Origin: the human T2T-CHM13v2.0 reference genome, Homo sapiens
DNA: 64,000 nt
Direction: 5' to 3'
Assembly: GCA_009914755.4 (NCBI GenBank)
Contig: CP068257.2
Coordinates: 44,960,001 to 45,024,000, forward strand
Shown: piece by piece, positions 24,570 to 31,520 of the stretch
How positions within the stretch are numbered: position 1 is the stretch's first letter
Layout of the letters: each line of letters opens with the position of its first letter
Translations under genes and position numbers: made by a program
Notes under the pieces: generated by a model
Told to the model about the DNA's origin: nothing
The model's input: the letters and a program-made list of their open reading frames with translations, nothing else
Databases searched by the model: none

Positions 24570-24835
24570 GTTGCTGCGCTTTTTTTTTTTTTGAGAAGGA
24601 GTCTTGCTCTGTCGCCCAGGCTGGAGTGCAGTGGCGCGATTTCGGCTCACTGCAACCTCCACCTCCCGGGTTCAAGCGATTCTCCTGCCTCAGCCTCCCA
24701 AGTAGCTGGGAATATAGGCACGCGCCACCACGCCAGGCTACTTTTTGTATTTTTGGTAGAGACGGGGTTTCACCATGTTGGTCAGGCTGGTCTCCAACTC
24801 CTGACCTTGTGATCCACCTGCCTCGGCCTCCCAAG
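24570..24835 (-). mobile_element. Alu SINE (5'-truncated) abutting the S100B poly(A) site
   Basis: T-run 24570-24582 then gagaaggagtcttgctctgtcgcccaggctggagtgcagtgg ... cctcggcctcccaag. The terminal ~35 bp of the Alu are missing. Confidence 0.9.
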
Positions 24836-24846
24836 CTGCGCTCTTT

Positions 24847-24852
24847 TTATTG
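24847..24852 (-). other. S100B: S100B polyadenylation signal AATAAA
   Basis: Plus strand tttatt at 24847-24852 is aataaa on the gene strand, ~735 nt downstream of the stop codon. Cleavage is expected ~24820-24837. Confidence 0.7.
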
Positions 24853-25587
24853 AACGCAGGCCCTCGCGGTGGCTCAGAGCCCCCGGTAGTGCCCTCGGAA
24901 GCCGCATGTGCTGGAGGCACGTTGGAGGCAAGGATCCTGCAGCCGCGACTTGAATCGCATGGGTCACGGAGGCCACGCTGGAGCCCCCAGAGCTGGCTCG
25001 GATTGCGAGTTCTGATGGAGTTGCTTTTTCCAGGAGCGCTGCCAGCGCTGAGCGTTCACCTGGTGATCAGGCGCATCCCGGGAAGCAGGCCGAAGCCACC
25101 ACGCCCTTGCAGGGCCACACCGGCCAACCAGCTGTTATCTGCATGGATGAGGAACGCATTTAAAGAACAGCAGTGTTTTCAAATAATGCTGGATAAGGCT
25201 TTGTTTTTTAAAGGTAGTGGAAGTTTTAAGGGTGCCCCGGGGTAATTTCTGTAGTCAGGGTTCCCTCCGGGTTAGGGTCTACACGGCCATGGCGGGCTGC
25301 ACGGTGCACGCTTTATCACTGAGACCTGACTCCTAAGTTACTGTTAACAAGAGTCCCTGGGGCCAGTCAGCTTACACACAGGCCTAATATAGCAGAAAGA
25401 ATGATGCAGGCCGTTAAAACAGCCTTTGGAAAGAGGTTTTCAATTTTTCAATCACAAAGCAAATCAAGCTTCCTAATTAGCTACAACACGGCTGGAAAGC
25501 TCAGCTCCTACTAGGCTGCAAGCCCTTGCTGTCTGCTTTCTTGCATGACCGTCTCTGTTACAGGAAAGGTTTGGCTGCTTTCTAATC

Positions 25588-25728
25588 TCACTCATGTTCA
25601 AAGAACTCGTGGCAGGCAGTAGTAACCATGGCAACAAAGGCCATGAATTCCTGGAAGTCACATTCGCCGTCTCCATCATTGTCCAGTGTTTCCATGACTT
25701 TGTCCACAACCTCCTGCTCTTTGATTTC
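25588..25728 (-). CDS. S100B: S100B coding exon 2 of 2 (aa 47-92, EF-hand 2), TGA stop at 25588-25590
   Basis: Reverse complement translates to EIKEQEVVDKVMETLDNDGDGECDFQEFMAFVAMVTTACHEFFEHE*, matching my recollection of the C-terminal half of human S100B. Confidence 0.95.
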   Translation of the reverse strand, partial: EIKEQEVVDKVMETLDNDGDGECDFQEFMAFVAMVTTACHEFFEHE

Positions 25729-26484
25729 CTAAGAGAGATAAAAGGAGTTGCCGACCTTGTTTTTAAATGGAATTTTGGACCATCAAAACATGATTAAAAG
25801 TTGAGTGACTCTGATAATTTGTGTCCGAAATAACCTAAGAACATCAAATGCAAAATATCAGAAAAGATGTCTCATGTGACCAGGGGGCTGTTGTCCAAGC
25901 AGAAATCTCTGGGGGTCAGTGTCTGGCCCTGAGCTACTGGAAAAGGCTGAATGGAACAGCCAAGAGGTGAAAAACTGAAGGTTGTTATCATACTTAAAAT
26001 ACCTGAAAAAAAAAAATACCATCTAGATCAGCCTGAGCAAATGTCTTGAAATAAAAATAAACTTTTGGCCCTCCTAAACTTTTCGTGTGTTCTGTGTGTG
26101 GAAGTCCCTGTCTCAAAGGCTTCCAGTGGAATTTAATGTTTTGAAAGTCTTCTTTGTTGCTGAAGTAACTCTTGGGAACGTGGCCTACATTTGTTAACCC
26201 TGTATTCTTTTTCCCACTTGAATTGCTTTCTAGGTGTCATGAAACTTTTTCCTGACAGTTCTGCCTGACATTGAAGCCAAATGAATGGTGTGGCTGTTAA
26301 GTGATGTGCACAGCCTCAGAGGAACAACCACAGTGCAGGGCTACAAACGTGGTGGGAAAAATTTGGGTATTGAACACTGATGAAGAGCATAAATGCAGAG
26401 TAACAATTCTCCGGGATAGGAAGGCTTGGCCTGAAGAAGTCAAGTGTAATGTACAACAGCTGCCTTGGCTATAAGACACACAGG

Positions 26485-28640: not shown

Positions 28641-28641
28641 C
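28503..28641 (-). other. S100B: S100B exon 2 (1 nt of 5'UTR plus the first coding exon)
   Basis: Acceptor ctttcctttgcgagcccctag|G ATG (AG at 28642-28643). Donor GTGAG at 28498-28502 (ctcac on the plus strand). Confidence 0.9.
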
Positions 28642-29604
28642 CTAGGGGCTCGCAAAGGAAAGTTGCCTTCTCATCTATACCTCATCCTAAAACATTTCAT
28701 ATGTTATCAATACAGACCTCAACCCAGACAAGGGGGATGGAATGGCCTTGGCACTCTTTTCAAGCTCAGAGCAGCAGGCATGGCCTGGAGGGGCATTCTG
28801 GGAATTTGCACTTTTATCATAATCCTTCCACCGGCCTCTTAGACAGCTGTGGGCCTGCCTTCTCTGTCCGTGTGGGCCACGGGGATATATTCCCATGCCC
28901 TCTGAATTCTGGCTGGGTTGGGCCAACAGGGAAACTGGCAAAAATACAGAGGCAGAGCAGCAAGGGAATTCAGGGATTAATTTCCCCTGAATTAATCCCC
29001 ACAGGGTCCCTCTCTGTTCCTGCAAGGCTCCAAGATGAGGTGGTAGAGTGCAGGTGAGCAAACCATCAACTGCAAGCTGTTAAAATCAATCTGAAAGTGA
29101 GACAGTGACTAGGAGCAAAATAAGAAGACAAAAAATCAATAGCATTCCTATATTCTATCAGTAAAGAAGTAGAAAATACAGTGCAAAATATCCTATGCAT
29201 ATAGCAATAACATGTGATCTAAGACTAAGTTTAGGAAGAAAAACGTAGGTCCTTCCAAGAGATTCTGAGGAACATAAAATGTAGGAAGTTTTTCCTTTAA
29301 ATTCATATGTAAATTTAAATCATTTTTAATAAAAACAATGGAATTTTTTTGGATGGGTGACATGACAAAAACAGCTGTAAAATTCATCAGGAAAAATAAA
29401 TATGGTAGAATTGCCGCAATCTTTTTGAAGAATAACAGTGAAAGTTATTTGATCTACCAGGAAAAAAAAATGTATCCTAAGTTTAACTGATCAAATGGGT
29501 GTGGTTCTGTCGCAGGGAGGGACAGAATCCAGCAGAAAGCTGAGCTGCTGAGCCTGCATTCCACCTCCAGTGTACCGAAAGGGTGGCTCATTCACTGCAG
29601 TGAC

Positions 29605-29665
29605 TGGGACGGCGGGAGGGGGTGGGGGGAGGGGGGGGGCGGGGGGGGGGGGTGGGGGCAGGAAT
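29605..29665 (+). repeat. G-rich low-complexity tract (runs of 10-14 G) in S100B intron 1; potential G-quadruplex
   Basis: gggacggcgggagggggtggggggagggggggggcgggggggggggggtgggggcagg seen directly. The complementary C-run gives the poly-Pro ORF 29491..29688(-). Confidence 0.9.
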
Positions 29666-31278
29666 AGGTGTTTCTCTGCAGCTGTCAAAGTAAGAGCCCC
29701 CCTACCTCCCTCACAGCAAGTACCTTACGCCACAGCCTACGAACCAAGGAAATATCTGGTCAGTCTGGGAATGAGGCGCATTTTACAAAGGTTGCCTTGT
29801 CAGTTGTTTCACAAAACAGATGCGCAGTCAGAGAAATTTACCAGCTTTTGGCCTTGAGTTCTAATCATTAAATGAGAACATTTGCGCTGTCATAATTAAA
29901 AACAAATTAATAAATCAAATAGTGTTGAAAAATCATTCCCATGTTGAATATATAACTTACATCTTAAAAATAATTTGGAATTAGATGTTAAAAATTTTAT
30001 TTATTTCTGATCCTCCGAAGGAAACAGGATTGAAGATTTTTTTATACTGGCCAGATCTTTGCTAAAGTCATTCTATTAATAATCAGTGTACTTTATTTTG
30101 CTCTTGAGTCCCTAAAAATTTGATAATTCACAAATAGAACAATTAAGATGGATTAAAATCTTTAACATTTCATGCTTTCTTATTCTTTGCACTCAAGTTT
30201 TCAATTATTGATATATGCATGTTTGTATGTGTGTGTATTTTTTTAAACAAAACAAGACACTTTTACATCATTCTGATGCTCCTCAAAGTCCATGATGATT
30301 TGGGGAAAAGGAGGTTAAATTGTTTTTCTATGAATTGTGACTAATGGGATTATTACAAAGGAAAGGCATAAAACATGTATCCCATATATTAGAACACTAA
30401 TAGAAACCACTAGAAAATATGGTTTTCTTCATAACCACACTACAAATCAATTAAATTCTTGTTAAATTTTTCCCTTTGACCTAAGAAATAGTTGATGGTT
30501 TATAGTTTATCTTTTAAGAGAAATGGAAATAAATGTCCGTTCCTTTCTCACATTCTTTGAATGTCCTACATTAATCTTTTAATATTGAGAACAAGAGAAC
30601 TTTTGAACTTTAACTCCTTAGAAAGACAAGTTACCTAGCATGTGAGGATCCCTCTAAAGAAGGGGTTCGACCTCCCTGAGAAACTGTGAGACTGAGGAAA
30701 GTTAAAACCCACCAAAACCCCGATTTCTTTGACCCAATTTATTTGTAATTGTTACGTAATTTCTGAGTGGCGTCCTGGGGCTGTGGGGACCCTGGCACTT
30801 CAAACTGAGGGAAACTGGAAAACTGAAGAGTTACTTACCCAGGGCGGTGGAAGAAATATAAGGAGAAAAGGGAAGCATTTATTTATGATATAGGACTAAA
30901 CTAGCATTAGGTTCTCCATCATTTTTAGCCCCAGTGGGAAGCAAAATCTTTACTCTTCAAATAGTTACAGAAGAGGCAATATTTGTAGTACCGCTGGGAA
31001 AATGTCAACAATCACTTCTGGGCCATGAAACCTGACGTTTCTCTGATTTATGGCAAAACACACCTCTAGCTGTCTAGGGCTGATGCAGTCAGGTGTCCGC
31101 AAAGCAGCAGTAATGTGGAGATTAAAACACATCATCCTATTGACACTTCTGAAATGCTGCCAATTGTCCTAAAGGGGCTTTTTAAGCTACCACTTAGTTT
31201 CTACCCCTCCATTCCGTTCCACCCAAAAGAAAAGAACCATTTCTTCCTGAGCGTCCTCTTGGCCTGGCTCTTTCTCAC

Positions 31279-31390
31279 CTCTTCCTTGTCTCACCCCTTC
31301 CTGGTCTCCTTGCTGCAGGCGTCGTCTCTGCTGCGGGTCCTGGGCGGCAGGACTGGTGGGCAGAGGCAGCCTCTTATTCCCTCTGCCCAG
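31279..31390 (-). other. S100B: S100B exon 1 (non-coding 5'UTR); TSS position approximate
   Basis: Gene-strand sequence ggcagagggaataagaggctgcctctgcccaccagtcctgccgcccaggacccgcagcagagacgacgcctgcagcaaggagaccaggaaggggtgagacaaggaagag|gtgagaaag. Donor GTGAG at 31274-31278 joins to exon 2 to give ..caaggaagagGATGTCTGAG, as I recall the S100B mRNA 5' end. The 5' boundary is from memory. Confidence 0.7.
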
Positions 31391-31520
31391 GGAGGATGGA
31401 TGAACCCTGGTGCAGCCCACTGCAGGCCGTGGCAGCCAATGGGAGCCGAGGGCGGGGGTGGCAGGGCTGCCAGGCCTGCACACAGGGCTGCATTGACCAA
31501 GCAGCCCCGGGGACTTGCTG
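31391..31520 (-). promoter_or_regulatory. S100B: S100B proximal promoter: NF-Y (inverted CCAAT) and Sp1 GC-box ~50-75 bp upstream of the presumed TSS
   Basis: Plus strand cagccaatgggagccgagggcgggggtgg (31434-31462). No TATA box evident within 40 bp of the presumed TSS. Confidence 0.5.

What the first reader, a model, noticed from the sequence alone, without database searches (positions are those of the whole stretch)
24830..31520. Complete S100B gene recovered de novo (3 exons, 92-aa product, canonical splice sites)
Minus-strand exons at 28503-28640 and 25588-25728 join in phase to give [46 protein letters not shown]+EIKEQEVVDKVMETLDNDGDGECDFQEFMAFVAMVTTACHEFFEHE. The non-coding exon 1 has a GTGAG donor. 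Both acceptors have polypyrimidine tracts, and an AATAAA lies ~735 nt past the stop. The six-frame track did not list either coding exon, because each is <60 aa in its own frame.
Basis: partly seen in the sequence, partly recalled or inferred. Interest (0 to 1): 0.5.

Follow-up and report, generated by a model that had tools for sequence, protein, structure and literature searches.

The report
Human S100B gene, correctly recovered

Summary
Minus-strand segments 28640-28503 and 25728-25588 translate as stated and join in phase to 92 aa. That protein is 92/92 identical to solved human S100B (E 2.9e-57) and is an exact match to the S100B_HUMAN database entry.

Four published S100B SNPs with GRCh38 positions all map with one offset. 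This places the window at chr21:46,573,776-46,637,775, plus strand.

A published human RT-qPCR primer spans the exon 1/exon 2 junction. It fixes exon 1's end at 31279 (donor GTGAG 31278-31274) and exon 2's start at 28641. The only canonical AATAAA within about 2 kb of the stop is at 24851-24846, 737 nt past it. A SNP annotated as 3'UTR lies 4 nt before it.

- Exon 2 carries 1 nt of 5'UTR.
- A second GTGAG (31294-31290) lies inside exon 1.
- The transcription start is not fixed by my tools (about 31350-31435); 31520 reaches into the promoter.
- A 5'-truncated Alu starts 12 nt after the AATAAA.

The parts
31400..31720 (-). Proximal S100B promoter. It is a conserved block, not a CpG island. It holds a SOX motif CTTTGTT at 31689-31683 and an inverted CCAAT (ATTGG) at 31440-31436.
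   Evidence: Identity to the distant mammal locus L001 is 76-86%, against about 62% in the introns. No CpG island was called here. A SOX10 response element was reported at -334/-240 of human S100B (PMC4275212); equating it with this motif is my inference.
31371..31378 (-). TATA-like element AATAAGAG
   Evidence: Read from the sequence. GATAAGAGGCTGC is conserved in L001. Its function is inferred.
31279..31388 (-). Exon 1, non-coding. The 3' end at 31279 is firm. The 5' end is uncertain (about 31350-31435); 31388 is a placeholder recalled from the reference mRNA.
   Evidence: The first half of the qPCR forward primer, ACAAGGAAGAG, maps to 31289-31279. The donor GTGAG is at 31278-31274. There is no ATG in 31433-31279.
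28642..31278 (-). Intron 1 (GT...AG)
   Evidence: gtgaga at the 5' end and cccctag at the 3' end. The junction is supported by the primer.
28503..28641 (-). Exon 2: 1 nt of 5'UTR plus codons 1-46. It encodes the S100-specific pseudo-EF-hand. The synonymous SNP rs1051169 lies at 28542.
   Evidence: Identity is 100% to L002 and 91% to L001.
25729..28502 (-). Intron 2, phase 0, gtgagt...tcttag. It contains an Alu at 26490-26761.
25588..25728 (-). Coding part of exon 3: codons 47-92 plus TGA. It encodes the canonical EF-hand loop DNDGDGECDFQE.
   Evidence: Identity to L001 is 94%.
24829..25587 (-). 3'UTR (the rest of exon 3). rs9722 lies at 25551 and rs9983698 at 24855. The end near 24829 is inferred, not measured.
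   Evidence: SNPs annotated as 3'UTR map here. The 3' end is inferred from the poly(A) signal position and from recalled annotation.
24846..24851 (-). AATAAA poly(A) signal
   Evidence: It is the only AATAAA or ATTAAA in the roughly 2 kb after the stop. It is identical in L002 and reads AATCAA in L003.
24581..24834 (-). 5'-truncated Alu in the sense orientation, with an A-tail. It is flanked by the 8-bp direct repeat AGCGCAGC (24842-24835 and 24580-24573).
   Evidence: It is absent at the orthologous site in L003.

Best explanation
This is the human S100B gene at chr21q22.3, on the minus strand of a window that equals GRCh38 chr21:46,573,776-46,637,775.

Structure. A TATA-like, non-CpG-island promoter drives a three-exon transcript. 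Exon 1 is non-coding. Exon 2 encodes the N-terminal S100-type pseudo-EF-hand. Exon 3 encodes the canonical EF-hand and a 3'UTR of about 760 nt that ends after the AATAAA at 24851-24846.

Function (established knowledge). The 92-aa product is the S100-B subunit, which forms a homodimer. Ca2+ binding (and Zn2+ at His15/His25/His85/Glu89) opens a hydrophobic cleft that binds targets such as p53, CapZ and NDR kinase. Secreted protein signals through RAGE.

Shown here: the sequence, the splice junctions, identity to the solved protein and the genomic position. Inferred: the transcription start, the cleavage site and promoter element function.
For: - Translations of both coding exons are as claimed.
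- The product is 92/92 identical to PDB human S100B, E 2.9e-57.
- It is an exact-sequence member of the entry named S100B_HUMAN.
- Pfam S_100 scores 78.2 bits (cut-off 22) and EF-hand_1 scores 26.0 bits (cut-off 25.4).
- The ATG-to-stop genomic span is 3053 nt. That equals the span on the GCA_000001405.29 contig of 46,709,983 bp and differs from the other ape assemblies returned, which have 3054, 3054, 3055, 3064 and 3274 nt.
- Four SNPs with published GRCh38 positions and primers map with the single offset 46,573,775, and each shows the published first-listed (major) allele.
- A junction-spanning human qPCR primer splits exactly as 31289-31279 | 28641-31.
- Coding exons are 91-94% identical to a distant mammal, against about 62% for the introns. 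All splice sites are conserved.
- The PRMT2 N-terminus lies at 63214-63252 behind a CpG island at 61301-62550, giving the expected synteny.
Against: Nothing contradicts the identification. Four points remain untested or weak.

- No mRNA, CAGE or poly(A)-site data were available, so the transcription start and cleavage site are not measured.
- Human genomic DNA could not be fetched for a base-by-base comparison.
- L003 has AATCAA in place of the distal AATAAA, and L001 has an AATAAA only 420 nt after the stop. Use of the distal site is therefore not universal among mammals.
- The PRMT2 query sequence came from my memory.
Confidence: 0.98

Rival explanations
1. The locus is the S100B orthologue of a non-human ape rather than human. 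The same 92-aa protein is shared by 38 boreoeutherian taxa.
For: The protein alone cannot discriminate species. The window is 95.6% identical to L002, which I recall to be a gibbon-family assembly.
Against: Four human SNP positions spread over 3,978 bp fit GRCh38 numbering with zero net indel, and their primers match. The CDS span of 3053 nt equals GRCh38, while the two assemblies I recall as Pan both have 3054 nt.
Confidence: 0.01
2. It is a paralogue or a pseudogene copy of an S100 gene, not the functional S100B locus.
For: S100 is a large family, and S100A1, S100Z and S100P hit at 1e-25 to 1e-30.
Against: Identity to S100B is 100%. The reading frame is intact. Introns are present with conserved GT-AG sites, so it is not a processed copy. 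The position is the chr21 S100B position and PRMT2 is the neighbour.
Confidence: 0.005
3. Detail rival: most S100B mRNA ends at a proximal, non-canonical poly(A) site about 380-450 nt after the stop, not at the distal AATAAA. The gene's usual 3' end would then be near 25140-25190 rather than 24830.
For: TTTAAA variants lie at 25212-25207 and 25164-25159. L001's only AATAAA, 420 nt after its stop, aligns to human AGATAAC near 25141-25135. Conservation with L001 collapses beyond about 25300. I recall an older annotation with a shorter 3' end, but this is memory only.
Against: rs9983698 at 24855 is annotated as 3'UTR. AATAAA at 24851 is the only canonical signal.
Confidence: 0.15
4. Detail rival: exon 1 is spliced from the first GTGAG (31294-31290) rather than the second.
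For: Both have the same intron-side sequence GTGAGA.
Against: The published primer ACAAGGAAGAG|GATGTCTGAGC contains the 16 nt between the two sites. The second site has the better exon side, AG|GT. L001 keeps GAGGAG|GT at the second site but lacks a GTGAG at the first.
Confidence: 0.02

Closest known systems
Human S100B (UniProt S100B_HUMAN; PDB 2h61, 3czt, 5csf and others), gene at 21q22.3
   Same: The 92-aa protein is identical. The genomic coordinates agree by SNP anchors. The layout is three exons with a non-coding exon 1. The known SNPs rs1051169, rs9722, rs9983698 and rs11911834 are all found at their places.
   Different: No difference was found.
S100A1, the closest paralogue among solved structures
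   Same: It has the same two-EF-hand S100 fold and a similar length (93-94 aa). The hit covers residues 2-89.
   Different: It scores only about 107-109 bits (E about 1e-30) against 194 bits for S100B. It sits in the 1q21 S100 cluster, not on chr21 (established knowledge).
Generic S100 gene organisation, for example S100A15: three exons, exon 1 untranslated, GT-AG introns
   Same: Exon 1 is untranslated, exons 2 and 3 each encode one EF-hand, and both introns are GT-AG (PMC9572071).
   Different: S100B lies outside the 1q21 epidermal differentiation cluster (established knowledge).

Membership tests
S100 protein family | N-terminal S100-specific (pseudo) EF-hand domain | tested here: met
   Pfam PF01023 S_100 covers residues 4-47 at 78.2 bits against a cut-off of 22.
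S100 protein family | C-terminal canonical 12-residue EF-hand loop (D-x-D-x-D-G....E) | tested here: met
   PF00036 EF-hand_1 covers residues 54-80 at 26.0 bits against a cut-off of 25.4. The loop DNDGDGECDFQE can be read directly.
S100 protein family | Gene of three exons: exon 1 non-coding, one EF-hand per coding exon, intron in the hinge | tested here: met
   The coding exons end and begin at ...HFLE|EIKE... with gt/ag. The exon 1-exon 2 junction is given by a published primer. The family rule is as described in PMC9572071.
Human S100B (orthology and identity) | Protein sequence identical to reference human S100B | tested here: met
   92/92 identical to PDB 2h61_A. Exact match to the entry named S100B_HUMAN.
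Human S100B (orthology and identity) | Chromosomal position 21q22.3, at GRCh38 chr21 about 46.60 Mb, next to PRMT2 | tested here: met
   Four SNPs map with one offset. The CDS span of 3053 nt equals that on the GRCh38 chr21 contig. The PRMT2 N-terminal exon lies at 63214-63252 (the query was recalled from memory).
Human S100B (orthology and identity) | Transcribed and spliced as modelled; transcription start and poly(A) site | not testable with these tools
   The evidence is indirect only: qPCR primers used on human astrocytes give a 213-nt amplicon on the model, and SNPs carry a 3'UTR annotation. No CAGE, RACE or 3'-seq data were available.
Human S100B (orthology and identity) | Ca2+/Zn2+-binding homodimer with the solved S100B fold | not tested
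   This follows from sequence identity with solved structures. No new modelling was needed.

The most novel reading that the evidence does not exclude
In the ape lineage the S100B 3' end may have been remodelled. An ancestral proximal AATAAA, still present 420 nt after the stop in L001, decayed to AGATAA. A distal AATAAA then became the signal; it reads AATCAA in L003. A 5'-truncated sense Alu inserted 12 nt after that signal would now supply the cleavage site and downstream element. The result would be a lineage-specific 3'UTR about 300 nt longer, carrying rs9983698 next to the signal. This is an evolutionary footnote to a known gene, based on three comparison genomes and no transcript data.
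Probability: 0.3. Interest if true: 0.15.

Novelty: already known. Interest (0 to 1): 0.04.

Why it matters
It matters only as a quality check. It shows that a reader without tools can reconstruct a small spliced human gene whose exons are invisible to a 60-aa ORF filter. S100B itself is a textbook glial, Schwann-cell and melanoma marker and a chromosome 21 dosage gene. Its structure, sequence and variants are fully catalogued, so nothing here opens a new question.

Tried and rejected
Using the id P0001 worked, but DNA for the human, the other great-ape and one further assembly (six of the ten places) timed out twice. No base-by-base human comparison was therefore possible, and I used SNP anchors from the literature instead.
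- The original gene paper (PubMed 2394738) is not held.
- A literature search for the S100B transcription start or TATA box gave nothing usable.
- The Rfam scan of the whole window found no match.
- Long bacterial-code ORFs in the GC-rich 20-24 kb stretch (222, 321 and 326 aa), antisense in intron 2 (233 aa) and in the 61-62 kb CpG island have no Pfam match. I dismissed them as chance ORFs.
- I considered and rejected a processed pseudogene, a paralogue, and a chimpanzee or bonobo origin (see rival explanations).
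Full report
**1. Observation**

- 28640-28503 gives MSELEK...SHFLE (46 codons).
- 25728-25588 gives EIKEQE...FFEHE plus TGA.

The first segment is followed by gtgagt and preceded by ...ctttcctttgcgagcccctag|g. The second is preceded by ...ctccttttatctctcttag. The join is in phase 0 and gives 92 aa.

The ORFs that contain these exons under a mechanical ORF definition are 56 aa and 39 aa. This explains why a 60-aa ORF track missed them.

AATAAA lies at 24851-24846, 737 nt beyond the stop. It is the only AATAAA or ATTAAA in the roughly 2 kb downstream of the stop.

**2. Identity**

- The 92-aa product is identical over its full length to human S100B chains in the PDB (2h61_A and others, E 2.9e-57).
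- It is an exact-sequence member of the database entry named S100B_HUMAN, a sequence shared by 38 boreoeutherian taxa.
- Pfam finds S_100 (78.2 bits) and EF-hand_1 (26.0 bits), both above their curated cut-offs.
- The next best solved relatives are far behind: S100A1 at about 1e-30, and S100Z and S100P.

**3. Species and genomic position**

The exact-protein look-up lists a gene on a contig of 46,709,983 bp of GCA_000001405.29. Its ATG-to-stop span is 3053 nt. The window's span is also 3053 nt (28640-25588). The other ape assemblies returned have 3054, 3054, 3055, 3064 and 3274 nt. Their DNA could not be fetched for the human entry.

A stronger anchor comes from PMC7205279, which gives GRCh38 positions and extension primers for four S100B SNPs. 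All four map to the window with the single offset 46,573,775, and each carries the first-listed (major) allele:

| SNP | Window position | Base | Location |
|---|---|---|---|
| rs9983698 | 24855 | C | 3'UTR |
| rs9722 | 25551 | G | 3'UTR |
| rs1051169 | 28542 | C | exon 2, synonymous |
| rs11911834 | 28833 | G | intron 1 (290 nt before the exon 2 splice donor site's partner acceptor, i.e. upstream of exon 2) |

Three of the four primers match exactly next to the predicted base. The printed rs9722 primer differs at one base, but its position and allele fit.

The window is therefore GRCh38 chr21:46,573,776-46,637,775 on the plus strand, and S100B is on the minus strand.

Synteny agrees.
- A strong CpG island lies at 61301-62550.
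- The PRMT2 N-terminus MATSGDCPRSESQ is at 63214-63252 on the plus strand and is followed by a gtaat donor. The PRMT2 query was recalled from memory.

**4. Exon 1 and the promoter**

Two GTGAGs lie 16 nt apart, at 31294-31290 and 31278-31274.

A human S100B RT-qPCR forward primer published in bioRxiv 10.64898/2026.09.07.749850, ACAAGGAAGAGGATGTCTGAGC, does not occur contiguously in the window. It splits into ACAAGGAAGAG (31289-31279) and GATGTCTGAGC (28641-28631). So exon 1 ends at 31279, the second GTGAG is the donor, and exon 2 starts at 28641, one base before the ATG. The reverse primer lies in exon 3 (25685-25666), and the modelled amplicon is 213 nt.

Exon 1 has no ATG anywhere between 31433 and 31279, so the S100B AUG is the first in the mRNA. 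Its context is AAGAGGATGT.

The 5' end of exon 1 cannot be measured with these tools. These features bear on it:
- A TATA-like AATAAGAG lies at 31378-31371 and an inverted CCAAT at 31440-31436. Both sit in a block that is 76-86% identical to the distant mammal locus L001, against about 62% for the introns.
- There is no CpG island at the promoter. I take this to fit a tissue-restricted gene; that is inference.
- A SOX motif, CTTTGTT, sits at 31689-31683 in the most conserved part.
- PMC4275212 reports a SOX10 response element at -334 to -240 of human S100B and another in intron 1 within +200. If this motif is one of those sites, the start they used lies between about 31355 and 31443. That is inference.

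**5. Conservation**

These figures come from a four-way alignment of the window with L002 (95.6% identical overall), L003 (about 87%) and L001 (about 62-74% in alignable blocks).
- Coding exons 2 and 3 are 91% and 94% identical to L001.
- Both donors, both acceptors, the ATG and the TGA are conserved in all four sequences.

L001 actually encodes ...FFEQE (H91Q), although it was returned by an exact-sequence look-up. This is a tool caveat and has no biological weight.

**6. 3' end**

rs9983698, annotated as 3'UTR, lies 4 nt upstream of the AATAAA. The annotated transcript therefore reaches the distal signal.

A 5'-truncated, sense-oriented Alu follows at once (Alu positions 39-281 plus a 13-A tail, window 24834-24581). 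It is bracketed by the 8-bp direct repeat AGCGCAGC. L003 has the empty site and reads AATCAA instead of AATAAA. L002 has both the Alu and the AATAAA.

L001 has its only AATAAA 420 nt after the stop. It aligns with human AGATAAC at about 25141-25135. Identity to L001 falls to 18-47% distal to 25300.

The distal 3'UTR thus looks primate-specific. I keep a minor rival that some human mRNA ends at a proximal non-canonical site.

**7. How it works**

This section rests on established knowledge, backed by identity with solved structures. S100-B is a homodimeric EF-hand protein.
- Exon 2 encodes helix I, the 14-residue pseudo-EF-hand loop and helix II.
- The intron falls at the start of the hinge.
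- Exon 3 encodes the canonical loop DNDGDGECDFQE, helices III and IV, and the C-terminal extension.

Ca2+ binding reorients helix III and exposes the target-binding cleft. Zn2+ binds at the dimer interface, and the residues His15, His25, His85 and Glu89 are all present in the sequence.

Transcription is glial, Schwann-cell and melanocyte specific and SOX10-responsive (PMC4275212).

**8. Verdict**

The finding is real and correctly interpreted. It is the already-known human S100B gene. Interest is low and novelty is nil. The only mildly interesting by-product is the apparent remodelling of the 3' end (Alu insertion and a shifted poly(A) signal), which is untested.

Noticed in passing
window 24573-24842 (-): A 5'-truncated sense Alu (24834-24581) is inserted 12 nt after the S100B AATAAA, with the 8-bp target-site duplication AGCGCAGC. 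It is present in L002 and absent in L003. The mRNA cleavage site probably lies at or just inside the Alu.
   Followed up: partly
window 25130-25215 (-); L001 about 420 nt after its stop: L001 has a canonical AATAAA 420 nt after the stop that aligns with human AGATAAC. L003 has no AATAAA or ATTAAA within 1.5 kb of its stop and reads AATCAA at the human distal site. The S100B poly(A) signal seems to have moved during primate evolution.
   Followed up: partly
window 61301-62550 and 63214-63252 (+): A strong CpG island (1250 bp, GC 0.67, CpG observed/expected 0.78) is followed by an exon that begins the PRMT2 protein (ATG at 63214, MATSGDCPRSESQ, donor gtaat). This is the head-to-head neighbour gene about 30 kb from the S100B promoter.
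   Followed up: partly
window 24401-25250: A weak CpG island (850 bp, GC 0.58, observed/expected 0.65) overlaps the distal S100B 3'UTR and the Alu, at the edge of a GC-rich stretch (about 22.5-25 kb, GC 0.58-0.63). The long plus-strand ORFs there (22289-23254 and 23306-24286) have no Pfam match and are probably chance.
   Followed up: partly
window 1-18000 and 38000-46000: These are AT-rich stretches with strong AT skew of alternating sign, as expected of L1 fragments in both orientations. An ORF at 6840-7343 (-) matches the L1 ORF1 dsRBD-like domain (PF17490, 1.3e-18). Fifteen Alu copies are spread over the window.
   Followed up: partly
window 44042-44103 and 45053-45174: There is a (TCTA)n microsatellite of 15 copies, and a 30-bp unit repeated 4 times (also readable as 60 bp repeated twice).
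   Followed up: no
L001 13060-13105: The locus returned as carrying exactly the query protein actually encodes ...FFEQE (H91Q). The exact-sequence index is therefore not always exact for spliced eukaryotic genes.
   Followed up: yes
window 31560-31720 (-): This is the most conserved non-coding block of the locus, up to 86% identical to L001. It includes TGCACATTTGCTTTGTTTGAATCAATTAATCC with a SOX motif and CACAAAAAGCTGACTCCCCACTTCCTGCC. It probably corresponds to the published SOX10-responsive region.
   Followed up: partly
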